Origin: Isurus oxyrinchus
Lineage: Eukaryota
Length of the DNA stretch: 64,000 nucleotides
Assembly (NCBI GenBank): GCA_026770705.1
Contig: JANJGN010000016.1
Span: forward strand, 88,164,001-88,228,000
Reading direction: 5' to 3'
Under the pieces are notes generated by a model. That model was not told where the DNA came from and ran no database searches. It worked only from the letters and a program-made list of their open reading frames with translations. Positions 399-38,641 of this stretch are shown piece after piece. Made by a program: the position numbers and the translations under genes. Positions within the stretch are counted from its first letter, which is position 1. Every line of letters starts with the position of its first letter.

Positions 399-1660
399 TT
401 AAATTTTCTGTGGAGTGGTGAAGTTCCTCACAGAAGTTGCAGTCGTCTTGTACAGCAGAAGGGGCTCCGCTCCGGTGTGTGGTCCAGCCAGTTTGCACAA
501 CCTGCTGCAGTTTCTCAGGACGACATCCTTCTTGGTCACTTCCCTGATCTCAGTCAGTTTGGTTCCAGCCACAGGAAAGTTCTTTGTCAGCGTGTGAACC
601 TGTGCTGCCCTTTCTTTATTCTCTTGCTCCGTGATGGGTGGGTATGCACGTGACAGAGAGTCTGCGATGTACATTTCCATGTCTGGTTTCTATTTAACTC
701 TGGCCTGGTACTTCTGCAGACACATTAATAATCTTTGGATTCTTGGTGGTGCACAGTTTAAGGATTTTTAAGTGCAGCTTCCAAAGGCTTATGATCAGAC
801 TCTACCTCCATGTCTTTGCCAAACTGATGGAAACGTTCTAGGTCAAACACAATTGCTAACATTTCTTTCTCTATTTGGACACCCCGCTGCTGTGTTTCAG
901 TCGTTGCCTTTGAAGCCGATGCCACTGGAGCCTCATTTTGCAAGAGGACATTTCCCAGGCCAGTCTTTGAAGCGTCCACTGAGATCTTGACCGGGTGACT
1001 GACATCGTAACACTTTAACCCTGGTGCTTGGGTCAGTGTTCTGTGCAGACTGGTCAAAGCTTCCTGGTGACTTTGTTCCCAGTGCAATTCCACATCATTT
1101 TGTGGAAGTTCTCTGAGAGGTGCTGTCAGGTCTGATATGTTTGAAATGAATTTCCCAGGATAGCTCACCATTCCCAAATACCTCTCCAAGTCTTTCTTAC
1201 ATCCTGGGAGTGGCATGTTCACAACTGCTTCGATTTTACTCGGGTCCGGTTTCAGTCCCTCACTTGTTGGCACATGTCCCAATACTTGATTTCATGTAGA
1301 CCTATTTTGTACTTTTCTTCCTCAAGTTGAGGCTCCTTTCTCCAGCTCTGGCCAGTACCTGCCTCAGTCTGTGGTCGTACTCTTCTCGTGAGGCTCCCCA
1401 GACCAGCACATCATCGATATAGGTTTCACTGCCCTCTAACCCTTCAAACAGCCCCTTCACTGCTCTGTGGAAAACCTCCGGAGCTGAATTAATACCAAAA
1501 GGTCAGCGTAGAAACCTGTATAACCCGTATGGTGTGTTCAAGGTACAGAGATAGGAGCAGCGTTCATCCAGCTTGACCTGCCAGAAGCACAAACTCACAT
1601 CTGAGACTGAATAGTATTTAGCATCAGCAACTATACACGTGATCTCTTCTACACGTGATC
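399..1660 (-). mobile_element. Degenerate Ty3/Gypsy LTR-retrotransposon pol fragment (RT + RNase H, integrase missing)
   Basis: Minus-strand translation gives EEITCIVADAKYYSVSDVSLCFWQVKLDE...NTPYGLYRFLR, YIDD (1410-1421), GHVPTSEGLKPDPSKIEAV, RNase H VDASKTGLG...EKEMLAIVF...SDHKPL and ADSLSRA. It is broken by stops and frameshifts, and no LTRs were seen. Confidence 0.9.
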
Positions 1661-4600
1661 TCTGAATTGTATTTAGCATCAGCAACTATACACGTGATCT
1701 CTTCTACACGTGTTCTCTGAATAGTATTCAGCATCAGCTACTTTACATGTGATCTCTTCTACACGTGATCTCTGAATAGTATTCAGCATCAGCAACTATA
1801 CACGTGATCTCTTCTACACATGATCTCTGAATAGTATTTACCATCGTCTACTTTACACGTGATCACTTCTACATGTGATCTCTGAATTGTATTTAGCATC
1901 AGCTGGTTTACACGTGAACTCTTCTACATGTGATCACTGAATAGAATTTAGCATCAGTTACTTTAGACATGATCTCTTCTACACGTGATCTCTGAATAGT
2001 ATTTAGCATCAGCTACTTTACACGTGATCTCTTTACACGTGATCTCTGAATAGTATTCAGCATCAGCAAGTTTACACATGATCTCTTCTACATGTGATCT
2101 CTGAATAGTATTTAGCACCAGCTAGTTTACAAGTGATCTCTTCTACACGTGATCTCAGAATAGAATTTAGCATCAGCTACTTTACACGTAATCCCTTCTA
2201 CACATGATCTCTGAATAGTATTTAGCACCAGCTACTTTCCACGTGATCTCTTCTACACGTGATCTCAGAATAGAATTTAGCATCAGCTACTTTCCACGTG
2301 ATCCCTTCTACACATGATCTCTGAATAGTATTTAGCACCAGCTACTTTACACGTGATCCCTTCTACACGTGATCACCGAATAGAATTTAGCATCAGCTAC
2401 TTTACACGTGATCCCTTCTACACGTGATCACTGAATAGTATTTAGCATCAGCTACTTTACACATGATCTCTTCTACACATGATCTCTGAATATTATTTAG
2501 CATCAACTACTTTACTCGTGATCTCTTCTATATGTCATTACTGAATATTATTTAGCATCAGTTACTTTACACATGATCTCTTCTACACGTGATCTCTGAA
2601 TAGTATTTAGCATCAGTTACTTTACACATGATCTCTTCCACATGTGATCTCTGAATAGTATTTAGCACCAGCTACTTTACACGTGATCCCTTCTACATGT
2701 GATCTCCGAATACTATTTTGCTTCAGCTAGTTTACACGTGATCTCTTCCACACATGATCTCTGAACAGTATTTTGCATCAGCTAGTTTACACGTGATCTC
2801 TTCTGCACCTGATCTCTGAATAACATTTAGCATCAGCTAGTTAACGTGATCTTTTCAACACGTGTTCTCTGAATGGTATTTTGCATCAGCTACTTTACAC
2901 CTGATCTCTTCTATACCTGATCTATGAATAGTATTTAGCTTCAGCTACTTTGCACGTGATCTCTTCTACACATGAACTCTGAATAGTATTTAGCATCAGC
3001 TTGTTTACACATGATCTCTTCTACATGTGATCTCTGAATAGTATTTAACATCCGCTTGTTTACATTTGATCTCTTCTACATGTGATCTCTGCATAGTATT
3101 TAGCATCAGCTTGTTTACACATGATCTCTTCTACATGTGATCTCTGAATAGTATTTAGCATCAGCTAATTTACACGTGATCTCTTCTACACGTGATCTCT
3201 GAATAGTATTTAGCATCAGCTTGTTTACATGTGATCTCTTCTACACGTGATCTCTGAATAGTATTTAGCATCAGCTTGTTTTCACGTGATCTCTTCTACA
3301 TGTGATCGCTGAATATTATTTAGCATCAGCTACTTTGCACGTGATCTCTTCTACACGTGATCTCAGAATAGAATTTAGCATCAGCTACTTTACACGTGAT
3401 CTCTTCCACATGTATTCTCTGAATAGTATTTAGCATCAGCTTGTTTTCACGTGATCTCTTCTACATGTGATCTGTGAATAGTATTTAGCATCCGCTACTT
3501 TACACGTGATCTCTTCTACACGTGATCTCAGAATAGAATTTAGCATCAGCTACTTTACACGTGATCTCTTCCACATGTGTTCTCTGAATAGTATTTAGCA
3601 TCAGCTTGTTTTCACGTGATCTCTTCTACATGTGATCTGTGAATAGCATTTAGCACCAGCTACTTTACACGTGATCCCTTCTACACGTGATCACTGAATA
3701 GAATTTAGCATCAGCTACTTTACACGTGATCCCTTCTACACGTGATCACTGAATATTATTTAGCATCAGTTACTTTACACATGATCTCTTCTACACGTGA
3801 TCTCTGAATAGTATTTAGCATCAGTTACTTTACACATGATCTCTTCTACACGTGATCTCGGAATAGTATTTAGCATCAGCTACTTTACACATGATCTCTT
3901 CTACACGTGATCTCTGAATAATACTTAGCATCAGCTATTTTACACGTGATCTCTTCTACATGTGATCTCTGAATAGTATTTAGCATCAGCTACTTTACAC
4001 GTGATCTCTTCTACACGTGATCTCGGAATACCATTTAGCATCAGCTACTTTACACGTGATCTCTTCTACACTTGATCTCTGAATAGTATTTAGCTTCAGC
4101 TACTTTACACATGATCTCTTCTACATGTGATCTCGGAATAGTATTTAGCATCAGTTACTTTACACATCATTTCTTCCACACGTGACCTCTGAATAGTATT
4201 TAGCATCAGCTACTTTACACGTGAACACTTCTACAGGTCATCTCTGAATATTATTTAGCATGAACTACTTTACACGTGATCTCTTCTACACGTGATCTCT
4301 GAATAGTATTCAGCATCAACTACTTTACACGTGATCTCTTCTACATGTGATCTCGGAATAGTATTTAGCATCAGCTACTTTACACGTGATCTCTTCTACA
4401 CATGATCTCAGAATAGTATTTAGCACCAGCTACTTTACACGTGATCTCTTCTACACGTGATCTCTGAATAGTGTTTAGCATCAGCTTATTTACACGCGAT
4501 CTCTTCTACACATGATCTCTGAATATAATTTAGCATCAGCGACTTTACACGTGATCCTTTCTACACGTGATCTCAGAATAGTATGTAGCATCAGGTAGCT

Positions 4601-7600
4601 TACACATGATCTCTTCCACACATGATCTCTGAACAGTATTTTGCATCAGCTTGTTTACAGGTGATCTGTTCTACACGTGATCTCTGGACAGTATTTAGCA
4701 TCAGCTACTTTACACATGATCCCTTCTACACGTGATCACTGAATAGAATTTAGCATCAGCAACTTTACACGTGATAGCTTCTACACGTGATCACTGAATA
4801 TTATTTAGCATCAGTTACTTTACACATGATCTCTTCTACACGTGATCTCTGAATAGTATTTAGCATTAGTTACTTTACACATGATCTCTTCTACACGTGA
4901 TCTCTGAATAGTATTTAGCATCAGTTACTTTACACATGATCTCTTCTACACGTGATCTCGGAATAGTATTTAGCATCAGCTACTTTACACGTGATCTCTT
5001 CTACACGTGATCTCTGAATAATACTTAGCATCAGCTAGTTTACACGTTATCTCTTCTACATGTGATCTCTGAATAGTATTTAGCATCAGCTCCTTTACAC
5101 GTGATCTCTTCTACACGTGATCTCGGAATAGCATTTAGCATCAGCTACTTTACACGTGATCTCTTCTACACTTGATCTCTGAATAGTATTTAGCTTCAGC
5201 TACTTTACACATGATCTCTTCTACATGTGATCTCGGAATAGTATTTAGCATCAGTTACTTTACACATCATTTCTTCCACACGTGACCTCTGAATAGTATT
5301 TAGCATCAGCTACTTTACACGTGAACTCTTCTACAGGTCATCTCTGAATATTATTTAGCATCAACTACTTTACACGTGATCTCTTCTACACGTGATCTCT
5401 GAATAGTATTCAGCATCAGCTACTTTACACGTGATCTCTTCTACATGTGATCTCGGAATAGTATTTAGCATCAGCTACTTTACACGTGATCTCTTCTACA
5501 CATGATCTCAGAATAGTATTTAGCACCAGCTACTTTACACGTGATCTCTTCTACACGTGATCTCTGAATAGTATTTAGCATCAGCTTATTTACACGCAAT
5601 CTCTTCTACACATGATCTCTGAATATAATTTAGCATCAGCGACTTTACACGTGATCCTTTCTACACGTGATCTCAGAATAGTATGTAGCATCAGGTAGCT
5701 TCCACATGATCTCTTCCACACATAATCTCTGAACAGTATTTTGCATCAGCTTGTTTACAGGCGATCTGTTCTACACGTGATCTCTGAACAGTATTTAGCA
5801 TCAGCTACTTTACACATGATCCCTTTTACACGTGATCACTGAATAGAATTTAGCATCAGCTACTTTACACATGATCCCTTTTACACGTGATCACTGAATA
5901 GAATTTAGCATCAGTTACTTAACACATGATCTCTTCTACACTTGATCTCTGAATAGTATTTAGCATCAGCTACTTTACACATGATCTCTTCTACATGTGA
6001 TCTCGGAATAGTATTTAGCATCAGTTACTTTACACATGATTTCTTCCACACGTGATCTCTGAATAGTATTTAGCATCAGCTACTTTACACTTGAACTCTT
6101 CTACAGGTCATCTTTGAATATTATTTAGCATCAACTACATTACACGTGATCTCTTCTACACGTGATCTCAGAATAGTATTCAGCATCAGCTACTTTACAC
6201 ATGATCTCTTCTACACGTGATCTCTGAATAGTATTTAGCATCAGCTTATTACACGCGATCTCTTCTACACATGATCTCTGAATATAATTTAGCATCAGTG
6301 ACTTTACACGTGATCCTTTCTACACGTGATCTCAGAATAGTATGTAGCATCAGGTAGCTTCCACATGATCTCTTCCACACATAATCTCTGAACAGTATTT
6401 TGCATCAGCTTGTTTACAGGCGATCTGTTCTACACGTGATCTCTGAATAGAATTTAGCATCAGCTACTTTGCACATTATCCCTTTTACACGTGATCACTG
6501 AATAGAATTTAGCATCAGCTACTTTACACATGATCTCTTCTACATGTGATCTCGGAATAGTATTTAGCATCAGTTACTTTACACATCATTTCTTCCACAC
6601 GTGACCTCTGAATAGTATTTAGCATCAGCTACTTTACACGTGAACTCTTCTACACGTGATCTCTGAATATTATTTAGCATCAACTACTTTACACGTGATC
6701 TCTTCTACATGTGATCTCTGAATAGTATTCAGCATCAGCTACTTTACACGTGATCTCTTCTACATGTGATCTCGGAATAGTATTTAGCATCAGCTACTTT
6801 ACACGTGATCTCTTCTACACATGATCTCAAAATAGTATTTAGCACCAGCTACTTTACACGTGATCTCTTCTACACGTGATCTCTGAATAGTATTTAGCAT
6901 CAGCTTATTACACGCGATCTCTTCTACACATGATCTCTGAATATAATTTAGCATCAGCGACTTTACACGTGATCCTTTCTACACGTGATCTCAGAATAGT
7001 ATGCAGCATCAGGTAGCTTACACATGATCTCTTCCACACATGATCTCTGAACAGTATTTTGCATCAGCTTGTTTACAGGTGATCTGTTCTACACGTGATC
7101 TCTGAACAGTATTTAGCATTAGCTTGTTTACACATGATCTCTTCTACATGTGATCTCTGAACAGTATTTAGCATCAGCTACTTTACACATGATCTCTTCT
7201 ACACGTGATCTCTGAATAGTATTTAGCATCAGCTACTTTACACGTGATCTCTTCTACATGTGATCTCGGAATAGTATTTAGCATCAGCTACTTTACACGT
7301 GATCTCTTCTACACATGATCTCAGAATAGTATTTAGCACCAGCTACTTTACACGTGATCTCTTCTACACGTGATCTCTGAATAGTATTTAGCATCAGCTT
7401 ATTACATGCGATCTCTTCTACACATGATCTCTGAATATAATTTAGCATCAGCGACTTTACACGTGATCCTTTCTACACGTGATCTCAGAATAGTATGCAG
7501 CATCAGGTAGCTTACACATGATCTCTTCCACACATGATCTCTGAACAGTATTTTGCGTCAGCTTGTTTACAGGTGATCTGTTCTACACGTGATCTCTGAA

Positions 7601-10600
7601 CAGTATTTAGCATTAGCTTGTTTACACATGATCTCTTCTACATGTGATCTCTGAACAGTATTTAGCATCAGCTACTTTACACATGATCTTTTCTACACGT
7701 GATCTCTGAACAGTATTTAGCATCAGCTTGTTTACACGTGATCTCTTCTACACATGATATGGGAATAGTATTTAGCATCAGCAACTTTACTCGTGATCTC
7801 TTCAACACAATATCTCTGACTAGTATTTAACTTCAGCTATCTTACACATGATGTCTTCTACACGTGATCACTTCTACACCTAATCTCTGAATAGTATTTA
7901 ACATCATATAGGTTACACATGATCTCTTCTATACCTGATCTCTGAATAGTATTTAGCTTCAGCTATCTTACACATAATCTCTTCTACACATGATCACATC
8001 TACACCTGATCTCTGAACAGTATTTTGCATCAGTTACTTAACACGTGATCTCTTCTACACGTGATCTCAGAATAGTATTTAGCACAGATAGTTTACACAT
8101 GATCTCTTCTACACGTGTTCTCTAAGTAGTATTTAGCATCAGCTACTTTACATGTGATCTCTTCTAAACGTTATCTCTGAATAGTATTTAGCATCAGCTA
8201 CTTTACACGTGATCTCGTCTACACATGATCTCTGAATAGTATTTAGCACAGATAGATTACACGTGATCTCTTCTACATGTGATCTCTGAATAGTATTTAG
8301 CATCAGCTTGTTTACACATGATCTCTTCTACATGTGATCTCCGAATAGTATTTTGCTTCAGCCAATTTACTCATGAGCTCTTCCACACGAGATCTCTGAA
8401 TAGTATTTAGCTTCAGCTATCTTACACATAATCTCTTCTACACATGATCTCTTCCACACATGATCACTGAACAGTATTTTGCATCAGCTTGTTTACAGGT
8501 GATCTGTTCTACACGTGATCTCTGAACAGTATTTAGCATTAGCTTGTTTACACATGATCTCTTCTACATGTGATCTCTGAACAGTATTTAGCATCAGCTA
8601 CTTTACACATGATCTCTTCTACATGTGATCTCTGAATAGTATTTAGCATCAGCTACTTTACACGTGATCTCTTCTACATGTGATCTCGGAATAGTATTTA
8701 GCATCAGCTACTTTACACGTGATCTCTTCTACACATGATCTCAGAATAGTATTTAGCACCAGCTACTTTACACGTGATCTCTTCTACACGTGATCTCTGA
8801 ATAGTATTTAGCATCAGCTTATTACACGCGATCTCTTCTACACATGATCTCTGAATATAATTTAGCATCAGCGACTTTACACGTGATCCTTTCTACACGT
8901 GATCTCAGAATAGTATGCAGCATCAGGTAGCTTACACATGATCTCTTCCACACATGATCTCTGAACAGTATTTTGCATCAGCTTGTTTACAGGTGATCTG
9001 TTCTACACGTGATCTCTGAACAGTATTTAGCATCAGCTACTTTACACATGATCTCTTCTACACGTGATCTCTGAACAGTATTTAGCATTAGCTTGTTTAC
9101 ACATGATCTCTTCTACATGTGATCTCTGAACAGTATTTAGCATCAGCTACTTTACACATGATCTTTTCTACACGTGATCTCTGAACAGTATTTAGCATCA
9201 GCTTGTTTACACGTGATCTCTTCTACACATGATATGGGAATAGTATTTAGCATCAGCAACTTTACTCGTGATCTCTTCAACACAATATCTCTGACTAGTA
9301 TTTAACTTCAGCTATCTTACACATGATGTCTTCTACACGTGATCACTTCTACACCTAATCTCTGAATAGTATTTAACATCATATAGGTTACACATGATCT
9401 CTTCTATACCTGATCTCTGAATAGTATTTAGCTTCAGCTATCTTACACATAATCTCTTCTACACATGATCACATCTACACCTGATCTCTGAACAGTATTT
9501 TGCATCAGTTACTTAACACGTGATCTCTTCTACACGTGATCTCAGAATAGTATTTAGCACAGATAGTTTACACATGATCTCTTCTACACGTGTTCTCTAA
9601 GTAGTATTTAGCATCAGCTACTTTACATGTGATCTCTTCTAAACGTTATCTCTGAATAGTATTTAGCATCAGCTACTTTACACGTGATCTCGTCTACACA
9701 TGATCTCTGAATAGTATTTAGCACAGATAGATTACACGTGATCTCTTCTACATGTGTTGTCTAAGTAGTATTTAGCATCAGCTACTTTACACATTATCTC
9801 TTCTACACGTTATCACTGAATAGTATTTAGCATCATATAGTTTACACATGATCTCTTCTACACCTGATCTCTGAATAGTATTTAGCATCATATAGTTTAC
9901 ACACGATCTCTTTTACACCTGATATCTGAATAGTATTTAGCTTCAGCCAATTTACTCGTGATCTCTTCTACACGTGATCTCTGAATAGTATTTAGCTTCA
10001 GCTATCTTACACATAATCTCTTCCACACATGATCTCTTCTGCACCTGATCTCTGAATAGTATTTTGCATCAGCTACTTAACACATGATCTCTTCTACACG
10101 TGATCTCAGAATAGAATTTAGCAACAGCTTGTTTACACATGATCTCTTCTACATGTGATCTCTGAATAGTATTTTGCATCAGCTAATTTACACGTGATCT
10201 CTTCTACACGTGATATCGGAATACTATTTAGCTTCAGCAACATTACTCGTAATCTCTTCAACACAATATCTCTGACTAGTATTTAACTTCAGCTATCTTA
10301 CACATGATCTCTTCTACAAGTGATCACTTCTACACCTGATCTCTGAATAGTATTTTGCATCAGTTACTTACCACATGATCTCTTCTACACGTGATCTCTG
10401 AATAGTATTTAGCATCAGCTACTTTACACATGATTTCATCCACACGTGATCTCTGAATATTATTTAGCAGCAGCTACTTTACACGTGATCTCTTCTACAC
10501 GTGGTCACTGAATAGAATTTAGCATCAGTTACTTTACACATGATCTCTTCTACATGTCATTTCTGAATATTATTTAGCATCAGCTTATTTACACGTGATC

Positions 10601-13600
10601 TCTTCTACACATGATCTCTGAATATAATTTAGCATCAGCTACATTACACATGATCCTTTCTACACGTGATCTCGGAATAGTATGTGGCATCAGCTAGTTT
10701 AGACGTGAACAATTCTACACATGATATCTGAATACTATTTAGCTTCAGCTTGTTTACACGTGATGTCTTCTACACGTGATCTCTGAATAGTATTTAGCAT
10801 CAGATAGTTTACATGTGATCTCTTCTACACCTGATCACTGAATAGTATTTAGCACCAGCTAGTTTACTAGTGATCTCTTCTACATGTGATCTCCGAATAC
10901 TATTTCGCTTCAGCTAGTTTACACGTGATCTCTTCCACACATGATCTCTGAACAGTATTTTGCATCAGCTAGTTTGCACGTGATCTGTTCTACACGTGAT
11001 CTCTGATAGTACTTTGCATCAGCTAGTTTACATGTGATCTCTTCTGCGCCTGATCTCTGAATAACATTTAGCATCAGCTAGTTAACATGATCTCTTCGAC
11101 ACGTGTTCTCAGAATAGTATTTTGCATCAGCTACTTTACACCTGATCTCTTCTACACGTGATCTATGAATAGTATTTAGCTTCAGTTACTTTGCACGTGA
11201 TCTCTTCTATACATGATCTCTGAATAGTATTTAGCATCAGCTTGTTTACACGTGATCTCTTCTATACATGATCTATGAATAGTATTTAGCTTCAGTTACT
11301 TTATACATGATCTCTTCTACACGTGATCTCTGAATAGTATTTAGCATCAGCTAGCTTACATTTGATCTCTTCTACATGTGATCTCTGCATAGTATTTAGC
11401 ATCAGCTTGTTTACACATGATCTCTTCTACATGTGATCTCTGAATAGTATTTAGCATCAGCTAATTTACACGTGATCTCTTCTACACGTGATCTCTGAAT
11501 AGTATTTAGCATCAGCTTGTTTACATGTGATCTCTTCTACACGTGATCTCTGAATAGTATTTAGCATCAGCTAGCTTACATTTGATCTCTTCTACACGTG
11601 ATCTCTGCATAGTATTTAGCTTGTTTTCACGTGATCTCTTCTACATGTGATCGCTGAATATTATTTAGCATCAGCTACTTTACACGTGATCTCTTCTACA
11701 CATGATCTCTGAATAGTATTTAGCACCAGCTACTTTACACGTGATCTCTTCTACACATGATCTCTGAATAGTATTTAGCACCAGCTACTTCACACGTGAT
11801 CCCTTCTACACGTGATCACTGAATAGAATTTAGCATCAGCTACTTTACACGTGATCTCTTCTACACGTGATCTCTGAATAGTATTCAGCATCAGCTACTT
11901 TACACGTGATCTCTTCTACATGTGATCTCGGAATAGTATTTAGCATCAGCTACTTTACACGTGATCTCTTCTACACATGATCTCAGAATAGTATTTAGCA
12001 CCAGCTACTTTACACGTGATCTCTTCTACACGTGATCTCTGAATAGTATTTAGCATCAACTACTTTACACGTGATCTCTTCTACACGTGATCTCTGAATA
12101 TAATTTAGCATCAGCTACTTTACACGTGATCTCTTCTACACATGATCTCAGAATAGTATGTAGCATCAGGTAGCTTACACGTGAACAATTCTACACGTGA
12201 TATCTGAATAGTATTTAGCTTCAGCTAGTTTACACGTGATCTCTTCCACACATGATCTCTGAACAGTATTTTGCATCAGCTTGTTTACAGGTTATCTGTT
12301 CCACACGTGATCTCTGAACAGTATTTAGCATCAGCTTGTTTACACATGATCTCTTCTACACGTGATCTCTGAACAGTATTTAGCATCAGCTTGTTTACAC
12401 GTGATCTCTTCTACACATGATCTCTGAACAGTATTTAGCATCAGCTTGTTTACACATGATCTCTTCTACACGTGATCTCTGAACAGTATTTAGCATCAGC
12501 TTGTTTGCACGTGATCTCTTCTACACGTGATATCGGAATAGTATTTAGCATCAGCAACTCTACTCGTGATCTCTTCAACACAATATCTCTGACTAGAATT
12601 TAACTTCAGCTATCTTACACATGGTGTCTTCTACACGTGATCACTTCTACACCTAATCTCTGAATAGTATTTAGCATCATATAGGTTACACATGATCTCT
12701 TCTATACCTGATCTCTGAACAGTATTTTGCATCAGTTACTTAACACGTGATCTCTTCTACACGTGATCTCAGAATAATATTTAGCACAGATAGTTTACAC
12801 GTGATCTCTTCTACACGTGTTCTCTAAGTAGTATTTAGCATCAGCTACTTTACACGTGATCTCGTCTACATGTGATCTCTGAATAGTATTTAGCATCAGC
12901 TACTTTACACATGATCTCTTCTACACATGATCACTTCTACACCTGATCTCTGAACAGTATTTTGCATCAGTTACTTAACACGTGATCTCTTCTACACGTG
13001 ATCTCAGAATAATATTTAGCACAGATAGTTTACACGTGATCTCTTCTACACGTGTTCTCTAAGTAGTATTTAGCATCAGCTACTTTACACGTGATCTCGT
13101 CTACACATGATCTCTGAACAGTATTTAGCACAGATAGATTACACGTGATCTCTTCTACACGTGTTCTCTAAGTAGTATTTAGCATCAGCTACTTTACACA
13201 TTATCTCTTCTACACGTGATCTCTGAATAGTATTTAGCATCATCTAATTTATAAGTGATCTCTTCTACACGTGATCTCTGAATATTATCTAGCATCAGCT
13301 ACTTTACACGTGATCTCTTCTATATGTGATCTCTGAATAGTATTTTGCTTCAGCTAGTTTACACGTGATCTCTTCTGCACGTTATCACTGAATAGTATTT
13401 AGCATCAGCTAGTTTACACACGAGCTCTTCTACACCTGATATCTGAATAGTATTTAGCTTCAGCTACTTTACATGTGATCTCTTCTACACGTGATCTCTG
13501 AATAGTACTTAGCATCAGCTACTTAACACATGATCTCTTCTACACGTGATCTCTTCTACACGTGATCTCTGAATAGTATTTAGCATCAGCTTGTTTACAC

Positions 13601-16600
13601 ATGATCTCTTCTACATGTGATCTCCGAATAGTATTTTGCTTCAGCCAATTTATTCGTGATCTCTTCCACACGAGATCTCTGAATAGTATTTAGCTTCTGC
13701 TATCTTACACATAATCTATTCTACACATGATCTCTTCTGCACCTGATCTCTGAATAGTATTTTGCATCAGCTACTTAACACATGATCTCTTCTACACGTG
13801 ATCTCTTCTACACGTGATCTCTGAATAGTACTTAGCATCAGCTTGTTTACACATGATCTCTTCTACATGTGATCTCTGAATAGTATTTAGCATCAGCTAC
13901 TTTACACGTGATCTCTTCTACACGTGATCTCTGAACAGTATTTTGCATCAGCTTGTTTGCACGTGATCTCTTTACACATGATCTCTGAATATTATCTAGC
14001 ATCAGCTACTTTACACGTGATCTCTTCTATATGAGGTCTCTGAATAGTATTTTGCTTCAGCTAGTTTACACATGATCTCTTCTACACGTGATCTCTGAAT
14101 AGTATTTAGCATCATATAGTTTACACATGATCTCTTCTACATGTGATCACTGAATAGTATTTAGCATCAGCTACTTTACACATTATCTCTTCTACACGTG
14201 ATCTCTGAATAGTATTTAGCATCAGCTTGTTTACACATGATCTCTTCTACATGTGATCTCCGAATAGTATTTTGCTTCAGCCAATTTACTCGTGAGCTCT
14301 TCCACACGAGATCTCTGAATAGTATTTAGCTTCAGCTATCTTACACATAATCTCTTCTACACATGATCTCTTCTGCACCTGATCTCTGAATAGTATTTTG
14401 CATCAGCTACTTAACACATGATCTCTTCTACACGTGATCTCTGAATAGTACTTAGCATCAGCTTGTTTACACATGATCTCTTCTACACATGATCTCTGAA
14501 TAGTATTTAGCTTCAGCTACTTTACACGTGATCTCTTCTACATGTGATCTCTGAATAGTATTTTGCATCAGCTAATTTACACGTGATCTCTTCTACACAT
14601 GATATCGGAATACTATTTAGCTTCAGCAACATTACTCGTGATCTCTTCAACACAATATATCTGACTAGTATTTAACATCAGCTATCTTACACATGATCTC
14701 TTCTACAAGTGATCACTTCTACACCTGATCTCTGAATAGCATTTTGCATCAGTTACTTAACACATGATCTCTTCTACACGTGACCTCTGAATATTATTTA
14801 GCATCAGCTAGTTTACACGTGATCACTTCTACATGTGATCTCTGAATAGTATTTAGCATCATCTAATTTATAAGTGATCTCTTCTACATGTCATCTCTGA
14901 ATATTATCTAGCATCAGCTACTTTACACGTCATCTCTTCTACACGTGATCTCTGAATAGTATTTAGCATCAGCTACTTTACACGTGATCTCTTCTACACG
15001 TGATCTCTGAAAACTATTTAGCATCAGCTACTTTACACGTGATCTCTTCTCCACATGATCTCTGAAAACTATTTAGCATCATCTAGTTTTCACATGACCT
15101 CTTCTACATGTGATCTCTGAATAGTATTTAGCATCAGCTAATTTACATGTGATATATTCTACACGAGATCTCTGAATAGTATTTAGCACCAGATAGTTTA
15201 CACATGATCTCTTCTACACGTGATCACTGAATAGACTTTAGCATCAGCTGCTTTACACGTGATCTCTTCTGCACGTGTTGTCTGAATAGTATTTAGCATC
15301 TGCGACTTTACACGTGATCTCTTCTACACGTGATCTATGAATAGTATTAGCTTAAGCTAATTTACACATGATCTGTTCTACACGTGATCTCTGAATAGTA
15401 TTTAGCCTCAGCTAATTTACACGTGATCTCTTCTACATGTGATCTCTGAATAGTATTTAGCATCAGCTACTTTACACGTGATCTCTTCTACACGTGATCT
15501 CTGATTGGTATTTAGCATCAGCTTGTTTACACGTGATCTCTTCTAAACGTGATCTCAGAATGGAATTTAGCATCAGCTACATTACACGTGATCTCTTCTA
15601 AACGTGATCTCAGAATAGAATTTAGCATCAGCTACTTTACACGTGATCTCTTCTACACATGATCTCGGTATTGCATTTAACACCAGCTACTTTACGCGTG
15701 ATCTCTTCCACATGTCTTCTGTGAATAGTATTTAGCATCAGTTACTTTACACGTGATCTCTTCTACACATGATCTCAGAATAGCATTTAGCACCAGCTAC
15801 TTTACACGTGATCTCTTCTACACATGATCTCTGAATAGTATTTAGCATCAGCTACTTTACACGTGATCCCTTCTACACGTGATCACTGAATAGAATTTAG
15901 CATCAGTTACTTTACACATGATCTCTTCTACACGTGATCTCTGAATAGTATTTAGCATCAGCTACTTTACACATGATCTCTTCTACACATGATCTCTGAA
16001 TAGTATTTAGCACCAGCTACTTTACACATGATCTCTTCTACATGTGATCTCGGAATAGTATTTAGCATCAGCTTGTTTACACATGATCTCTTCTACATGT
16101 GATCTCTGAATAGTATTTAGCATCAGCTAATTTATATGTGATCTCTTCTACACATGATCTCTGAATAGTATTTAGCATCAGCTTGTTTACATGTGATCTC
16201 TTCTACACATGATCTCTGAATAGTATTTAGCATCATATAGGTTACACATGATCTCTTCTACATGTGATCTCGGAATATATTTAGCATCAGCTACTTTACA
16301 CATGATCTCTTCTACACGTGATCTCTGAATAGTATTTAGCATCATCTAATTTATACGTGATCTCTTCTACATGTCATCTCTGAATATTATCTAGCATCAG
16401 CTACTTTACACGTGATCTCTTCTATGTGTGATCTCTGCATAGTGTTTAGCAACAACTACTATACACATGATCTCTTCTACACGTGATCTCTTCTACACGT
16501 GATCTCTGAATAGTATTTTGCCTCAACTAGTTTACACGTGATCTCTTCTACAAATGATCTCTGAATAGTATTTAGCATCAGCTTGTTTACATGTGATCTC

Positions 16601-18590
16601 TTCTATACCTGATCTCTGAATAGTATTTAGCATCATATAGGTTACACATGATCTCTTCTATACCTGATCTCTGAATAGTATTTAGTTTAGCTATCTTACA
16701 CATGATCTCTTCTACACATGATCTCTTCTGCACCTGATCTCTGAATAGTATTTTGCATCATCTGCTTAACACATGATCTCTTCTACATGTGATCTCTGAA
16801 TAGTATTTAGCATCAGCTTGTTTACACATGATCTCTTCTACATGTGATCTCTGCATAGTATTTAGCATCAGCTAATTTACACGTGATCTCTTCTACACAT
16901 GATCTCTGAATAGTATTTAGCATCAGCTTGTTTACATGTGATCTCTTCTACATGTGATCTCTGAATAGTATTTAGCTTCAGCTAATTTACACATGATCTC
17001 TTCTACACGTGTTCTCTGAATAGTATTTAGCATCAGCTACTTTACACATGATCTCTTCTATACCTGATCTCTGAATAGTATTTAGCATCAGCTACTTTAC
17101 ACATGATCTCTTCTACACGTGATCTCTGAATGGTATTTAGCATCAGCTTCTTTACACATGATCTCTTCTACACGTGATCTCTGAATCGTATTTAGCATCA
17201 GCTACTTTACACGTGATCTCTTCTAAACGTGATCTCAGAATAGAATTTAGCATCAGCTACATTACACGTGATCTCTTCTACACATGATCTCGGAATTGAA
17301 TTTAACACCAGCTACTTTACACGTGATCTCTTCCACATGTGATCTGTGAATAGTATTTAGCATCAGTTACTTTACACGTGATCCCTTCTACACATGACCT
17401 CGGAATAGCATTTAGCACCAGCTACTTTACACGTGATCTCTTGTACACGTGATCTCTGAATAGTATTTAGCATCAGCTACTTTACACATGATCTCTTCTA
17501 CACGTGATCTCTGAATGGTATTTAGCATCAGCTTCTTTACACATGATCTCTTCTACACGTGATCTCTGAATAGTATTTAGCATCAGCTACTTTACACGTG
17601 ATCTCTTCTAAACGTGATCTCAGAATAGAATTTAGCATCAGCTACATTACACGTGATCTCTTCTACACATGATCTGGGAATTGAATTTAACACCAGCTAC
17701 TTTACACGTGATCTCTTCCACATGTGATCTGTGAATAGTATTGAGCATCAGTTACTTTACACGTGATCCCTTCTACACATGATCTCGGAATAGTATTTAG
17801 CATCAGCTACTTTACACGTGATCCCTTCTACATGTGATCACTGAATAGAATTTAGCATCAGTTACTTTATACATGATCTCTTCTACACGTGATCTCTGAA
17901 TAGAATTTAGCATCAGCTACTTTACACATGATCTCTTCTACATATGATCTCGGAATAGTATTTAGCATCAGCTACTTTACACGTGATCTCTTCTACACGT
18001 GATCTCTGAATAGTATTTAGCATCAGTTACTTTACACGTGATCTCTTCTACATGTGATCTCTGAATAGTATTTAGCATCAGCTACTTTACACGTGATCTC
18101 TTCTACACGTGATCTCTGAATAGTATTTAGCATCAGTTACTTTACACGTGATCTCTTCTACACATGATCTCTGAATAGTATTTAGCATCAGCTTGTTTAC
18201 ATGTGATCTCTTCTACATGTCATCTCCGAATATTATTTAGCTTCGGCTAGTTTACACATGATCTCTTCTATACGTGATCTCTGAATATTATTTTGTATCA
18301 GTTGGTTTCACACGTGATCTCTTCTACATGTGATCTCTGAATATTATTTAGCATCAGCTGGTTTACACATGATCACTTCTAAATGTGATCTCTGAATAGT
18401 ATTTAGCATCAGATAGTTTACACGTGATCTCTTCTACACGTGATCTCTTCTACATGTGATCTCGGAATAGTATTTAGCATCAGCTACTTTACATGTGATC
18501 TCTTCTACATGTGATCTCTGAATAGTATTTAGCATCAGCTTGTTTACACGTGATCTCTTCTACACGTGATCTCTGAATAGTATTTAGTAT
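1597..18590. repeat. 55-bp satellite array, ~17 kb, ~310 monomers, derived from Gypsy RT
   Basis: Consensus ctgaatagtatttagcatcagctactttacacgtgatctcttctacacgtgatct; period 55 (e.g. gaata at 3806 and 3861). It has an internal 16-bp sub-repeat tacacgtgatctcttc, and some monomers carry an extra sub-repeat. Confidence 0.97.
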
Positions 18591-18789
18591 CCAACACGAG
18601 CTCTCTGACATTAAACCCCCAGGTTCAGGGACCCTCTATCTCGCACAGAGCACCGTATAGTATCTAATTCTAGAGTCCGCTGTCACACTCAACAATTATC
18701 CTGACCACTCCCAGAGCATCATCTGGGGTAACTTCGGGGTGCAGAGAATGGGAGGTCGTGGGTCAGTGTCACAATTGCTAATAATGGAG

Positions 18790-19610
18790 AAAATAGACTG
18801 GGGGAAGTTCAAGAGGCAGCATTAGAGCAACATAGATATCCCAGAGAGTTGTGGGGCTGGAGGATGTTACAGAGATGGCGGGGGCGGGGGAGGGTACAGG
18901 CTATGGAGGGATTTCTAAACAAGGGTGCGAATTTTAAATTCAAGGCTGTGCTTGACTGAGAGTCAGTGTGAGTCAGTGAGCGCAGGGGTGATAGACGAAG
19001 GAGACACAGGCAGCAGATTTTGGGTGATATCGAGATTATGAAGGGTAGGATGTTGGATGTGGGTCAGGAGTATGTTAGAATAGTCATGTCTGGAGGTTAC
19101 ACAGACATTGATGAGGGTTTCCATAGAAGATGAGCTGAGCTGGGCCTGAGTCAGGTGTTTTTATGTAAGTGGAAATAGACGGTCTTAGTGATGACACAGT
19201 TACATGGTTAGAAGCCCATCTCAGGGGCAAATATAACACCAAGTTTGTGAACAGCCACAGAGCAGACAGGGAGAGGGATGGAACTGGTGGCTAGGAAATG
19301 GAGATTGTGGCATGGACTGAAGGCATTGGCTTTGGAATTCCTGGTATTCAGTCGGTGGATATTTCTGCTCATCCAGGAGTGAATATCGGATACGAGTCTG
19401 ATCATTTTGAGACCGTGGAGGGGTTGAGAGAGATGGTGGTGAGATGGAGCTGGGTGCTGTCAGTGTACACGTGGAACCTGATGCTGTGATTTCAGATGTG
19501 GGGCAGTAAGTAGATGAGAAATCGGAGGCGGCCACAGTTAGATCCTTGAGAGACACCAGAGGGAACAGACCAGGAGCTGGAAGAGAAGCCATTGCAGGTA
19601 ATTCTGTGTG
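18790..19610 (-). mobile_element. Degenerate L2-clade LINE RT 3' fragment
   Basis: Minus-strand VSDIHSWMSRNIHRLNTRNSKA...LGVIF resembles the L2 'L.DI.SWM..NFL.LN..KTE' motif. Similar to the fragments at 33660-34145 and 35865-36495. Confidence 0.65.
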
Positions 19611-19995: not shown

Positions 19996-19997
19996 AA

Positions 19998-20495
19998 GAT
20001 CCACCTCACCCCCTCCCCCATAGAGGAATAGGAAGTTCCACCTCACCCCCTCCCCCATAGAGGAATAGGAAGATCCACCTCCCCCCTCCCCCATAGAGGA
20101 ATAGGAAGATCCATCTCACCCCCTCCCCCATAGAGGAATAGGAAGATCCATCTCACCCCCCTCGCCCATAGAGGAATAGGAAGATCTACCTCACCCCCTC
20201 GCCCATAGAGGAATAGGAAGATCCATCTCACCCCCTCCCCCATAGAGGAATAGGAAGATCCACCTCCCCCCTCCCCCATAGAGGAATAGGAAGATCCATC
20301 TCACCCCCTCCCCCATAGAGGAATAGGAAGATCCACCTCCCCCCTCCCCCATAGAGGAATAGGAAGATCCATCTCACCCCTCCCCATAGAGGAATAGGAA
20401 GATCCACCTCACCCCCTCCCCCATAGAGGAATAGGAAGATCCATCTCACCCCCTCCCCCATAGAGGAATAGGAAGATCCATCTCACCCCCTCCCC
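19998..20495. repeat. ~37-bp minisatellite (~13 copies)
   Basis: Unit catagaggaataggaagatccatctcaccccctcccc; period 36-37. Confidence 0.95.
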
Positions 20496-22167: not shown

Positions 22168-23310
22168 ACTTCTCATTCTCCCTGGTCCCTTGGATCTCTA
22201 ACTCTGGGAGATTTCCTGTATCTTTGTCAGTGAAGACAGACACAAAGTAATCATTTAGCTTCTCTGCCATTTCTCTATTCCCCATTATAAATTCTCTTAG
22301 CTGCCTGTAATGGACCCACATTTATTTTAGCTAAACATTTCCTTTTTCATATCTACAGAAGCTTTTACAGTCCGTTTATATGTCTTTTGCGAGTTTACGT
22401 TCATTTTCTATTCTCCCTTTATCAGTTTCTTGGCCCTCCTTTGCTGTTTTCTAAAATGCTCCCAATCCTTAAGTTTGTTAATATTTTCGACAACTTTATA
22501 AGCCCTTACTTTTAATCTTAAACAATCCTTAATGTCCTTTGTTAGCCACATTGACTGATTTTCCTTTTTTGGTTTTTGTGCCTTGAAGGAATGTATAATT
22601 GCAGTAAACTATGTAATAATTCACAAAAGACTATCCATTGCCAATGTACTGTCGCACCTTTCGATGTATTTCCCAATCCACATCAAGCAATTTTCCCTCT
22701 CACAGAAACCCAAGGAGAAATCATTTTCCTTGTTGAAATTTAACACACTGGTTTCGGATTGAACTGCCTCACTTTCAAACATAATGTAAATTACCGAATA
22801 CTCGATCTATAATAGCCTGTCCTCTGGTCCGTTCCTCAACATTCTGCTCTAGAAAACCATCCCTAACACACTCCAGAAACTCCTCCTTCCCAGTGTCAGT
22901 GCTCATTGCTCTTACCCAGTCTATATGCAAATTGAAATCACCCATGATCACTGTATTACCCATTCTACACATGTCTCTAATCTCCTGATCAATATCATGC
23001 CCCACATTACCAATACTGTTTGGTGGCTGATGAACAGCTCCAACCAATCTTTGCTGCCTCTTGCTGTTTCTTAGCTCCCACACAAACAGATTCCACACAT
23101 TGTTCTTCTGATCTGAGATCCACCCATACTAATGCCTGATCCTGTCCCTTATTATCAGCGCAGTACTAACACCTTTTCCTTTCTCCTGTCCTTCCTAAAT
23201 GTCAAATAACATTGAATATTCAGTTCCCAGTCTTTGTCACCCTGTAGCCACATTTCTGTAATGGCAATTAGATCATAGGCATTTACCTCTATCTGTGCCT
23301 TTAATTTGCT
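22168..23310 (-). mobile_element. CR1 LINE fragment (endonuclease and linker)
   Basis: Minus-strand VIMGDFNLHIDW...EEFLECVRDGFLEQNV and MAEKLNDYFVSVFT. Confidence 0.85.
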
Positions 23311-23698: not shown

Positions 23699-24635
23699 AT
23701 GGCAGGAGAGCTCAAAGCCGTGGTGTGCTCTTCGTGCTCCATGTGTGAAGCTGGGAACATTTCCAGTGCCCGGGACCAGCATTTGTGCAGGAAGTGTGTC
23801 CAGCTGCAGCTCCTGGAAGCTCAGATTTCAGAGCTGGAACGGAAGCTGGAGACACTGTGGAGCATCCGCAAGTCTGAGAGCATCGTGGATAGCACATTTA
23901 GAGAGGTGGTCACATTGCAGCTGAAGTGACTTGAGGAAGGAAAGGAATGGGTGACCACAAGGCAGTCCAAACGAAACAGGCAGGTAGTTCAGGAGTCCCC
24001 TGCGGTCCCGCTCACAAATCGGTATTACATTTTGGAGTCTGATGAGGATGCTGGTTCCTCCAGAGAGTGCAGACAGAGCCAAGCTTCTGGCACCACAAGC
24101 AGCCTGTCTGTACCAGACGGGAGGAAGAGCAATAGTAATAGAGGATTATATAGTCAGGGGAACAGGTAGGCGCTACTGCGGCTGTCAACGTGACTCCAGG
24201 ATGGTGTGTTGCCTCCTTGGTGCCAGGGTCCGGGATGTCACTGAACAGCTGCAGGGCATCCTGAAGGGGGTGGGTGATAAGGCAGAGGTCATGGTACATG
24301 TTGGTACCAATGACATAGGTAGAAAGAGGGATGAGGTCTTGCATCAATATTTCAGGGAGTTAGGCAGTAGACTAAAAAGCAAGACCTCTCGGGTTGTAAT
24401 CTCTGGATTACTACCAGTGCCACGTGCTAGTGAGCACAGAAATAGGAGAATAGTGCAGATAAATACGTGGATTAAGAGTTGGTGCAGGAGGGAGGGTTTT
24501 AGATTCCTGGATCACTGGGACCGTTTCTGGGGAAGGTGGGACCTGTACAAGTGGATCGGTCTACATCTGAACCAGAGCGGGACTGACATCCTTGCAGGCG
24601 GGTTTGCCAGTGCTGTTGGGAGGTGTTTAAAATAA
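23699..24635 (+). pseudogene. CR1 ORF1 (zinc finger/coiled coil + SGNH esterase), disrupted
   Basis: VVCSSCSMCE...LCRKC, LLEAQISELERKLETL, IVIEDYIVRG, VHVGTNDI and GLHLN. There is an in-frame TGA at 23927-23929 and a frameshift near 24120. Confidence 0.88.
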
Positions 24636-24759
24636 TTAGGCAGGGGGAGGGGACACAGAATGTTAACAGAATAGGGACGCATCATAATACAATAAAACAA
24701 TCAAGTCAGACGGAGTACAGCTGCATTAAGTTTCAAGGGAGTAAGGCAAGGCTGGATGG

Positions 24760-27503
24760 CCTCTACTTTAATGCCAGGAGTATTACAGGTAAAACGGATG
24801 AGTTAAGGGTGAGGATTGACACGTGGAATTGTGATATATTGGCCATCACTGAAACGTGGCTGAGGGAGGGGCAGGATTGGCAGCTCAACATTCTGGGATA
24901 TAGAATCTTCAGGCGAGACGAGGAGGGGATAAAAGAGGAGGAGGCATTGTATTGTTTGTTAAGGAGTCAGTTACTGCAGTAAGGAGAGATGATATCTTGG
25001 AGGGGGCATCGAATGAAGCTTTGTGGGTGGAGCTTAGGAATAAAAAAGGGGCAGCCACATTGTTAGGTGTTTATTATAGACCCACAGATAGTCAGCAGGA
25101 AATTGAGGAGCAAATATGAGCACAATTTGCGGAGGTGTGTAAAAACAATAACAATAGGGTAATTATATTAGGAGATTTCAACTTTCCCAACATTAATTGG
25201 GATAGACATGGTGTTAAGTGCTTGGATGGATTGGATATTTTGAAATGTTTACAGGAGGACTTTTTAGGTCAATATGTAGAGGGTCCAACAAGGGATGGCG
25301 CCGTGCTGGACTAATTCTGGAGAATGAAGCCAGACAGGTGGCTGAGGTGGTGGTGGGGGAGCATTTTAATGATATTGACCACAACATGGTACAGTTTAAG
25401 CTTGTTATGGACAAAGAAATAGGCAAGTTGCAAAAAAATGTCTTGGATTGGGGGAGAGTGGATTTTAGTAAAATAAGGCAGGATCTGGCCAAGGTAGACC
25501 GGGAACAGTTACTTGTGGGGAAATCTACAGAGGAGCAGTGGGGGGTATTGAAAAAGGAAATGGGGAGTGTACAGGCTCAACATGTTCCCTCTAGGGTGAT
25601 AGGAAGGAGTAACAAGCCCAGAGAACCATGGATGACCAGAGTTATTCAGGATACGATGAAAATGAAGAGAGAGGCTTTTAGCAGGTACAAGGGAAGCAAA
25701 TCAGCAGAGGCATTAGTGGAGTACAGACAGTGCAGAGTGGAGCTTAGAAAGCAATTAGGAGAGCAAAGAGGGGATATGAGAAAGCTCTGGCTGGTAAAAG
25801 TAGGGAAAATCCCAAGATATTCCAGATGTATATCAATGGGAAGAGGATAACCAGGGAAAGAGTAGGGCCCATTAGGGACCAAGGGGGCAATCTATGGGTG
25901 GAGCCAGCGGACATCGCTAGAGTGTTGAATGAATACTTCACATCCCTCTTCAACCCAGAGAATGAGAATGAAGGTATGGAACTCGGGGAGAGAGACTGCA
26001 AGGTTCTTAAATAAATTGATATATGGAGTGACAAGGTATTGGAGATGTTGGCAGGCTTAAGAGTGGACAAATCTCCAGGTCCGGACGATCTGTCTTCCAG
26101 ACTGCTGAAGGAGGTAAGGGAGAAGATCTGAAGGGCTCTGACCCAAATTTTTAATTCCTCTCTGGCCACGGGGGAGGTGCCAGAGGACTGGAGAAAAGCT
26201 AATGTGGTTCCGCTATATAAGAAGTGTTGTAGAGATAAGCCAGGGAATTACAGGCCAGTGAGTCTCACATCAGTGGTAGGGAAATTATTGGAGAAAGTTC
26301 TGAAGGAGAGTATCTATCTCCACTTGGAAAGGCAAGGTTTGATCAGGGATAGTCAGCATGGCTTTGTCAGAAGGGGGGCATGCCTTACAAATTTGATTGA
26401 ATGTTTTGAGGAGGTGACCAGGTGTGTAGATAAGGGTAGTGCAGTTGATGTAGTTTATATGGATTTCAGCAAAGCCTTCGACAAGTTCCCACATGGGAGA
26501 ATTATAAAGAAGGCAAATGGACATGGGATACAGGGTAATTTGATAAGATGGATTCAAAATTGGTTTAGTTGTAGGAGACAGAGGGTGATGACAGAAGGAT
26601 GCTTTAGTGACTGGAAGCCAGTGTCCAGTGGTGTACCACAGGGATCTGTGCTCAGTCCCCTATTATTCGTCGTTTATATAAACAACATAGATGACTATGT
26701 GGGGGGAGGATTAGTAAATTTGCGGATGACACAAAGATTGGCCGGGTGGTTAACAGTGAGGCTGAGTCTTGGGCTACAGGAAGATATAGACAGGATGGTC
26801 AAATGGGCAGATAAGTGGCAGATGGAACTTAACCCTGAAAAGTGTGAGGTGATACACTTTGGAAGGAGTAATTTGACAAGGAAGTATTCAATGAAAGGCA
26901 TGAGACTTGGAAGTTCTGAGGAACAAAGTGACATTGGAGTGTGTGTCCATAGATTTCTGAAGGCGGAGGGGCATGTTAGTGGGGTGATGAAAAAGACATA
27001 TGGGACACTTGCCTTTATCAATCAAGGCATAGATTACAAAATTTGAGAGTCATGTTGGAGTGTATAGAACCTTGGTGAGGCCACAGCTGAAGTACTGTGT
27101 GCAGTTCTGGTCGCCACATTATAGGAAGGATGTGATTGCACTGGACGGGGTGCAGAGGAGATTCAACAGGATGTTGCCTGGGATGAAACATTTAAGTTAT
27201 GAAGAGAGGTTGGAAATGCTTGGGTTGTTTTCATTGGAGCAGAGAAGACTGAGGGGCCACCTGATCGAGGTGTACAAGATTATGAGGGGCATGGACAGGG
27301 TGGATAGGGAGCAGCTGTTCCCCTTAGTTGAAGGGTCAGTTATGAGGGGATATAAGTTCAAGGTGAGGGGCAGGAAGTTTAGGGGGGATGTGAGGGGAAC
27401 ATTTTTTACCCAGAGGGTGGTGACAGTCTGGAATGCATTGCCTGGGAGGGTGGTGCAGGCGGGTTGCCTCACATCATTTAAAAAGTACCTGGATGAGCAC
27501 TAG
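24760..27503 (+). pseudogene. CR1 ORF2 (APE endonuclease + reverse transcriptase), disrupted
   Basis: YFNARSI, DILAITETWL, GDFNFPNINW, NYRPVSLTSVVGK, DFSKAFD, SGVPQGSVL and FADD (26719-26730, in a shifted frame). Several stops and frameshifts. Confidence 0.92.
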
Positions 27504-27723
27504 GAACGTCATAACATTCAAGGCTATGGGCCAAGTGCTGGTAAATTGGATTAGGTAGGAAGATCAGGTGTTTCTCACGTGTCAGTGTAGACTCGATGGG
27601 CTGAAGGGTCTCCTCCCCACTGTGTGATTCTGTGATTCTGTGATTGTGTGAATAGTCTTGTTATAAAAGAACCGTTCGGATGAATGACCATAATATGATA
27701 GAATTTACATTATGTTTTAAAAT

Positions 27724-30945: not shown

Positions 30946-30959
30946 GGGGTGAAGCTCAG

Positions 30960-38083: not shown

Positions 38084-38132
38084 ATGATTTCAGCCATCCA
38101 GCTGATCTGGCCTCTGGCATTCTGCATCGCAG
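38084..38132 (+). CDS. IGKV: Ig kappa light-chain leader exon (L-part1)
   Basis: ACCATG Kozak context; encodes MISAIQLIWPLAFCIA+G with a phase-1 donor gtacaa at 38133. The intron 38133-38318 ends in a pyrimidine tract plus cag. Confidence 0.95.
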
Positions 38133-38613: not shown

Positions 38614-38641
38614 CACAGTGATACAGAGCCTGACAAAAACC
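38614..38641 (+). other. 12-bp-spacer recombination signal sequence (V)
   Basis: CACAGTG (38614-38620) + atacagagcctg (12 bp) + ACAAAAACC (38633-38641); both elements match consensus perfectly. Confidence 0.98.

What the first reader, a model, noticed from the sequence alone, without database searches (positions are those of the whole stretch)
1560..18590. 17-kb satellite whose monomer is a slice of the adjacent Gypsy reverse-transcriptase ORF
Seen: the Gypsy RT frame on the minus strand runs without a break into the array. The first monomer encodes RVEEITCIVADAKYYS, directly followed by VSDVSLCFWQVKLDE. Established: Gypsy RTs carry a '(P)T.EEI...AGAK.FS.LD...GFWQ' motif at exactly this position. 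The 55-bp monomer consists of ~39 bp of this RT sequence plus a duplicated 16-bp sub-unit (tacacgtgatctcttc). The upstream part of the element (rest of RT, protease, gag, 5' LTR) does not reappear after the array. Inference: the satellite was born in place by slippage inside pol and then amplified ~310-fold, so the birth site is still attached to its parent sequence.
Basis: partly seen in the sequence, partly recalled or inferred. Interest (0 to 1): 0.8.

Follow-up and report, generated by a model that had tools for sequence, protein, structure and literature searches.

The report
Shark satellite copied from retrotransposon gene
A 17-kb block of about 300 tandem 55-base repeats is built from a short piece of a dead retrotransposon's reverse-transcriptase gene and is still joined base-for-base to the rest of that gene, a clean example, apparently in a shark, of a known way that satellite DNA arises.

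Summary
Core observation confirmed. The array (1607-18591) has 304 complete units. On the minus strand, 45 of each unit's 55 bp encode VEEITC(K/I)VADAKYYS; fish Ty3/Gypsy relatives read VEEITCRLAKAKYFS there, and 0 of 2000 shuffled monomers score as well. At the left end this slice continues without a gap into a Gypsy pol fragment (421-1652).

Corrections: the pol is a dead fragment (2 stops, 4 frameshifts), not an ORF. It is cut on both sides; integrase is missing too. The RT share is 45 bp plus 10 bp of filler.

Likely route: a 16-bp slippage between two native GTA triplets, a 55-bp tandem duplication at 2-bp microhomology, then growth by block duplication.

'Born at this locus' is plausible but not shown. 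There is no age gradient from the junction, the array (8.0% diverged) looks no younger than its parent (about 3%, upper bound about 7%), and a neighbouring Ig light-chain cluster suggests a duplicated region.

The same architecture is published for Chenopodium (tnp2 transposase), and a lamprey repeat matches Gypsy integrase. A new member of a known kind; I found no Gypsy-RT case in my searches.

The parts
421..1652 (-). Dead Ty3/Gypsy pol fragment: C-terminal half of RT (with YIDD), RNase H and linker; ends before integrase. In-frame stops at 1505-1503 and 692-690; frameshifts near 1335, 1280, 765 and 515; a 2-codon gap in RNase H
   Evidence: Pfam; tblastn and HMM of relatives
1607..1652 (-). 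Junction slice: 15 RT codons (V-E-E-I-T-C-I-V-A-D-A-K-Y-Y-S) plus one base, at once part of the RT and part of the first satellite unit; holds GTA at offsets 0 and 16
1607..18591 (-). 55-bp satellite array, 304 complete units; 45 bp in RT register plus 10 bp of filler from a 16-bp internal duplication; 17 units of 70-71 bp carry a third sub-unit
3751..9740 (.). Region of recent block duplications, e.g. an 18-unit run repeated 1100 bp on (0.94 differences per unit) and a 12-unit run repeated 1475 bp on (0.17 differences per unit)
18575..18609 (-). Far end: partial unit followed by a decayed, internally deleted unit remnant (13 of 15 match to the monomer)
   Evidence: 1 of 517 background windows reaches 13 of 15
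18610..19330 (.). Far flank: about 250 bp of unassigned sequence, then an interspersed repeat also present at 33667-34150; no Gypsy sequence
   Evidence: LINE-2-like reading of the translation rests on a recalled motif

Best explanation
The satellite is non-coding DNA that arose from one copy of a Ty3/Gypsy pol gene, and the left junction is the original parent-to-array joint, either at its first locus or carried here by a later duplication of the region. SHOWN: the monomer is 45 bp of RT in register plus 10 bp of filler, and it is joined without gain or loss of a base to the next RT codon. INFERRED step 1: slippage between two GTA triplets 16 bp apart in the V-E-E-I-T-C-K codons duplicated 16 bp. 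The same event is still recurring: 17 units have a third sub-unit. INFERRED step 2: a tandem duplication joined the end of the slice to the inside of the first sub-unit at a 2-bp (AG) microhomology, fixing a 55-bp unit that shifts the reading frame by one base per repeat. PARTLY SHOWN step 3: the array grew by unequal exchange and multi-unit block duplication (0.4-1.5 kb blocks and more) and was methylated (252 of 608 CpG sites now TG or CA). INFERRED step 4: the upstream part of the element was deleted together with the far end of the array, as the integrase end was lost on the other side. No function is indicated.
For: In-register, co-oriented, gapless junction. Slice 11 of 15 identical to the closest relative, in line with 67% for the whole RT piece. 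Y at a position that is F in 252 of 263 aligned relatives is present at the junction and in 223 of 267 units, which suggests a seed that was already damaged. The junction unit differs from the majority-type unit at only 2 of 55 bases. GTA repeat at offsets 0 and 16. Units gain a sub-unit (17 of 304) in several sequence backgrounds. The fragment is truncated at its other end too, so losses are common here. The parent has more indels per kb than array units (5 seen, 1.5 expected, P=0.02), as expected if it died before amplification.
Against: The upstream element, which a plain tandem duplication would leave beyond the array, is absent. No age gradient from the junction, and the centre is more diverse than either end. 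Array spread of 8.0% (6.7% non-CpG) is at or above the parent's estimated substitution decay of 2.5-3% (upper bound 6.5-7.5%). At slice codon 8, 51 of 267 units encode L, as do 14 of 14 close relatives, while the junction has V; at codon 7 the bulk K is nearer the relatives' R than the junction's I. So the junction unit is not a pristine parent. The relatives are teleost and invertebrate proteins; no DNA of this shark family was seen.
Confidence: 0.7

Rival explanations
1. Secondary homologous joining. The satellite was born from this Gypsy family elsewhere, and an existing array later recombined with, or was copied by break-induced replication onto, this dead copy through the shared 45 bp. 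That replaces the upstream element with array and gives a one-sided junction.
For: Explains the missing upstream half in one step, an array that looks as old as or older than its parent, no gradient and a decayed far end with a fresh near end, and relatives' residues retained in part of the array but not at the junction.
Against: Needs recombination across only about 45 bp of homology. The parent's indel load exceeds the array's. The age estimates overlap at their limits. Codon 8 position 1 shows all four bases, so it may simply be a hotspot.
Confidence: 0.18
2. Carried array (Ogre type). A non-autonomous Gypsy deletion derivative bearing a short array of this monomer was mobilised, so that many RT-array junctions exist and this is one that expanded.
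For: Precedent: nine Lathyrus satellites ride inside Ogre elements (PMC7004042, passages); several tnp2-array junctions per genome in Chenopodium (PMC7320549).
Against: No element sequence or LTR on the far side, and no second Gypsy piece in the window. A protein search with the 58-aa junction frame found no candidate (weak evidence).
Confidence: 0.08
3. Same origin, other order of events. The 55-bp unit came first, as a contiguous RT window from the Q of HYQ to the Y-Y-S, and nine bases were later overwritten by gain and loss of the 16-bp sub-unit.
For: In the relatives, Q lies 18 codons before the final S (54+1=55 bp), and the monomer has a Q codon in that register; Q is present in 14 of 14 close relatives.
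Against: Needs one more event than the preferred model; the following three codons do not match (RSR against LPT); Q is found in only 42 of about 260 relatives overall, and I put the coincidence at roughly 1 in 20 (estimate, not computed).
Confidence: 0.15
4. Chance resemblance, or a Gypsy element inserted next to an unrelated satellite.
For: Retroelements often insert into satellites (established knowledge; also noted in PMC7320549).
Against: 0 of 2000 shuffles reach the score; the match is at exactly the codons missing from the fragment; insertions end at LTRs, not in the middle of RT.
Confidence: 0.01

Closest known systems
Chenopodium CficCl-61-40 satellite from the tnp2 transposase of CACTA element Jozin (PMC7320549; read parts 1-3 of 5)
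   Same: [quoted passage not shown]
   Different: Plant DNA transposon, several junctions per genome, arrays of about 5 kb or less in the three nanopore reads reported. Here: an animal LTR-retrotransposon RT core, 17 kb, and a composite monomer with an internal 16-bp duplication.
Arctic lamprey LCA-ApaI, a 702-bp tandem repeat 70.7% identical to the integrase region of Gypsy-26_PM (PMC5381345; passages)
   Same: Vertebrate tandem repeat homologous to a Ty3/Gypsy pol coding region.
   Different: Long monomer, integrase rather than RT; no attached parent or junction in the passages I saw.
Other ORF-derived satellites listed in a review (PMC9659126; passages and table): chicken HinfI (CR1 ORF2), Phodopus PROsat (L1 ORF2), rye E3900 (gag), Aegilops Cereba gag
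   Same: Satellite monomers from retroelement coding sequence; the review concludes that any part of a TE can serve.
   Different: None of the entries I saw comes from the RT of an LTR element.
Ogre-derived satellites of Lathyrus sativus (PMC7004042; passages)
   Same: Satellite arrays tied to Ty3/Gypsy elements at a fixed position and orientation.
   Different: They come from pre-existing repeats in the 3' UTR inside the element, not from coding sequence.
Teleost Ty3/Gypsy gag-pol proteins (Serrasalmus, Labeo, Simochromis, Sarotherodon) and yeast Ty3 RT (PDB 4ol8, 7q5b)
   Same: 61-68% identity over the RT piece for the top 12 hits; domain set protease, RT, RNase H, integrase.
   Different: The window's copy is a truncated, broken fragment; no named shark relative came up.

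Membership tests
Ty3/Gypsy LTR retrotransposon (parent fragment) | RT domain with YxDD | tested here: met
   RVT_1 E=8.9e-13; TYIDDV in the translation
Ty3/Gypsy LTR retrotransposon (parent fragment) | Ty3-type RNase H directly after RT | tested here: met
   PF17919 E=7.6e-20 and PF17917 at 758-1291
Ty3/Gypsy LTR retrotransposon (parent fragment) | Nearest relatives are Ty3/Gypsy gag-pol proteins | tested here: met
   Named hits include 'Transposon Ty3-I Gag-Pol' and K02A2.6-like; 2 of 3 PDB hits are Ty3 by name or, for 4ol8, by recall; the third (8r0s, 'Enzymatic polyprotein') scores alike. No tree was built.
Ty3/Gypsy LTR retrotransposon (parent fragment) | Integrase after RNase H; gag and protease before RT; LTRs | tested here: inconclusive
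   The fragment ends before these parts on both sides; filed as a fragment derived from such an element, not as an element
Satellite DNA | Long head-to-tail array of non-coding monomers | tested here: met
   304 units over 17 kb; no frame of 120 aa or more inside the array; no Rfam match in 1-45000
Satellite DNA | Genomic abundance and heterochromatic location | not testable with these tools
   No shark genome available; CpG decay in 252 of 608 sites fits methylation
TE-coding-derived satellite with attached parent (CficCl-61-40 type) | Start monomer is part of the coding domain, same orientation | tested here: met
TE-coding-derived satellite with attached parent (CficCl-61-40 type) | High identity of start monomer to the array; truncated parent | tested here: met
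   2 of 55 differences; fragment 421-1652
TE-coding-derived satellite with attached parent (CficCl-61-40 type) | Repeated junctions across the genome and related species | not testable with these tools
   Only an indirect protein search was possible, with no candidate
Ogre-type element-embedded array | Array lies in the non-coding 3' region with element sequence on both sides | tested here: not met
   Monomer is coding-derived; far side has no Gypsy sequence

The most novel reading that the evidence does not exclude
This is the single birth site of the satellite, with both founding steps readable to the base, and the attached dead RT is a built-in neutral clock. On that clock the array has diverged more (8.0%) than its own parent (about 3%), which would mean that amplification itself is mutagenic and that the excess can be measured at one locus. 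It would also be the first satellite traced to the RT core of a Gypsy element in a vertebrate, as far as my searches go.
Probability: 0.22. Interest if true: 0.6.

Novelty: new member of a known kind. Interest (0 to 1): 0.38.

Why it matters
How a first satellite monomer forms is rarely visible, because parents decay or are lost. Here the parent's protein code, checked against independent relatives, marks which 45 bases are inherited and which 10 are new, and points to two short-homology duplications. It extends to a probable shark, and to Gypsy RT, a pattern known from a plant transposase. If the locus is the unique birth site it would allow array growth and mutation to be dated against the attached parent. 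It does not reveal a new mechanism or a function.

Tried and rejected
Search for the upstream element, integrase or a second Gypsy piece in the window: none by tblastn (11 of 34 relatives printed), by two profile HMMs or by blastn. Search for other carriers of the junction through the 58-aa junction frame among proteins of 31-102 aa: no candidate, weak evidence. A larger search (23,916 hits at E up to 0.001, best 150 seen) gave no relative closer than the Serrasalmus protein. Hairpin as the cause: not supported (z=-1.7 for a bulk dimer, -0.3 and -0.5 at the junction). RNA gene: no Rfam match. Gradient of age along the array: none. Junction units as ancestral state: rejected as undemonstrated. 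Dating array against parent: substitution and indel measures disagree, so left open. Whether the eight other tandem arrays in the window derive from neighbouring TEs: short blastn gave only low-complexity or weak matches. Literature: nine searches; a 20-base stretch of the monomer is in 0 papers; a shark genomics paper mentions satellites but not a 55-bp or Gypsy-derived one in its main text (PMC11406177, passages); the 2025 review PMC12692304 was seen as passages; PMC12457648 (beetle TE-derived satellites) is not held. Supplements were not read; satellite unit tables there could list this monomer.
Full report
VERDICT. In detail: the monomer comes from this Gypsy RT position and is joined to it in register. 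That this locus is the birth site is likely but unproven. The architecture is already described in plants, so this is a new member of a known kind.

THE ARRAY. Tandem Repeats Finder reports one array at 1607-18591 with period 55 and its multiples. Segmentation gives 304 complete units: 267 of 55 bp, 16 of 54, 16 of 71, 2 of 53 and one each of 49, 56 and 70. Units differ from a natural majority-type unit (17953-18007, present exactly 6 times) at 4.4 of 55 bases (8.0%; 6.7% outside CpG), and 252 of 608 CpG sites read TG or CA. Mean pairwise difference among the 267 55-bp units is 13.6%. Near-identical multi-unit blocks show recent growth by block duplication, for example 18 units repeated 1100 bp on and 12 units repeated 1475 bp on. 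The far end is a partial unit followed by a decayed remnant to about 18609 (13 of 15 match; 1 of 517 background windows does as well).

THE PARENT. The minus strand at 421-1652 holds the second half of an RT, an RNase H and the linker (Pfam E=8.9e-13 and 7.6e-20). It is dead: stops at 1505-1503 and 692-690, four frameshifts and a 2-codon gap. The nearest relatives are teleost Ty3/Gypsy proteins, 67% identical at best (34 hits among 285 candidates; 523 among 1481 for RNase H, best 120 seen). Profiles of 71 full-length and 13 close relatives find nothing else in the window: no gag, protease, first half of RT or integrase (258 chunks). So the fragment is cut on both sides, not only upstream.

THE LINK. 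The frame runs RSR-VEEITCIVADAKYYS-VSDVSLCFWQ across the junction. The closest relative reads QLPT-VEEITCRLAKAKYFS-VLDASSGFWQ. The slice matches at 11 of 15; a unit 16 kb away scores equally, and 0 of 2000 shuffles come near (57 against a maximum of 26). The match ends at the V: the three codons before it (RSR against LPT, the latter in 14 of 14 close relatives) are filler. The monomer is therefore 45 bp of RT plus 10 bp of filler.

MECHANISM (inferred from the sequence). The RT-coding slice has GTA at offsets 0 and 16. Slippage between these duplicates 16 bp and makes the two identical 13-bp sub-units seen in the reference unit. The step recurs: 17 units carry a third sub-unit, in several backgrounds, and none has lost one. 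The unit boundary joins the slice end to the inside of the first sub-unit with only AG in common, typical of microhomology-mediated tandem duplication (established knowledge, not tested). A variant order, with the 55-bp window first, is kept as a rival because a Q codon sits where the relatives have Q, 55 bp before the slice end. Folding gives no significant hairpin.

BORN HERE? For: a gapless co-oriented junction; a junction unit only 2 bases from the majority type (not unusual, P=0.18); a Y shared by the junction and 223 of 267 units where 252 of 263 relatives have F; more indels per kb in the parent than in the units (5 against 1.5 expected, P=0.02). Against or neutral: the upstream half is missing; distance between units does not track position (r=-0.07) and the ends resemble each other more than central units do; the junction's I is private to 3 of 267 units, with K in 241; 51 of 267 units keep L at codon 8 like the close relatives while the junction has V, though that site shows all four bases; the parent's substitution decay, estimated at conserved columns, is 2.5-3% with an upper bound of 6.5-7.5% (a cruder estimate gave 3.5-5.8%), at or below the array's spread. 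These estimates rest on distant proteins and are rough. The window also holds an Ig light-chain V-J-C cluster 20 kb away (V-set E=4.2e-19, C1-set E=3.4e-25; signals read). Such clusters are typical of cartilaginous fish and occur in many copies (recalled), which is my basis for calling the host a shark and a reason why the junction may have been duplicated. I put 0.7 on the junction being the original joint, and about 0.45 on this locus being the one birth site.

COMPARISON. In Chenopodium a roughly 40-bp piece of the tnp2 transposase domain is the start monomer of attached arrays, in the same orientation, with truncated parents and several junctions per genome (PMC7320549, parts 1-3 of 5 read). 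A lamprey 702-bp tandem repeat matches Gypsy integrase (PMC5381345, passages). A review lists satellites from CR1 and L1 ORF2 and from gag (PMC9659126, passages). Ogre-derived satellites come from 3' UTR repeats (PMC7004042, passages). Nine searches showed no satellite from the RT of an LTR element and no record of this monomer; the library lacks most subscription papers and I read no supplements.

SCORES. Interest 0.38: a clean, base-resolved example, not a new process. The boldest reading left open, a unique birth site whose parent serves as a clock and shows mutagenic amplification, I put at 0.22, with interest 0.6.

Noticed in passing
window 38085-43081 (+): Apparently intact immunoglobulin light-chain cluster: leader about 38085-38133, V exon about 38319-38612, 12-spacer signal 38614-38641, 23-spacer signal 39900-39938, J about 39939-39976, C exon about 42753-43081. 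The signal order fits a kappa-type cluster (recalled).
   Followed up: partly
window 38647-39442 and 39539-39878: A 61-bp (13 copies) and a 45-bp (7.6 copies) minisatellite fill the V-J interval, starting 5 bp after the V signal; the 61-bp unit holds CACAG motifs resembling the recombination heptamer.
   Followed up: no
window 23700-27600 (+): Near-full-length decayed LINE with GDSL-esterase ORF1, endonuclease and RT, CR1-like by recall; an opposite-strand endonuclease fragment at about 22200-23300.
   Followed up: partly
window 45257-63984: A second long satellite, 18.7 kb, G-rich (65% GC, G skew 0.7), period about 24 bp, very diverged, running to the window end.
   Followed up: no
window 27680-28934: 36-bp minisatellite (33.6 copies) begins right after a short LINE endonuclease-like fragment; by eye part of the unit resembles the LINE continuation at about 22770-22790, but short blastn did not support this.
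   Followed up: partly
window 19996-20495, 29427-30909, 30945-31619, 43237-43652: Further tandem arrays of 37, 23, 55 (unrelated to the main monomer) and 69 bp; the region is unusually rich in independent minisatellites.
   Followed up: partly
window 7818-18464: All 17 units of 70-71 bp lie from unit 113 onward, none in the first 6.2 kb; gains of the 16-bp sub-unit are seen but no losses.
   Followed up: partly
window 1587-1634: 7 of the 16 codons spanning the junction hold residues seen in under 3% of relatives, against 46 of 352 in the fragment overall; possibly extra mutation near the junction, possibly chance.
   Followed up: partly
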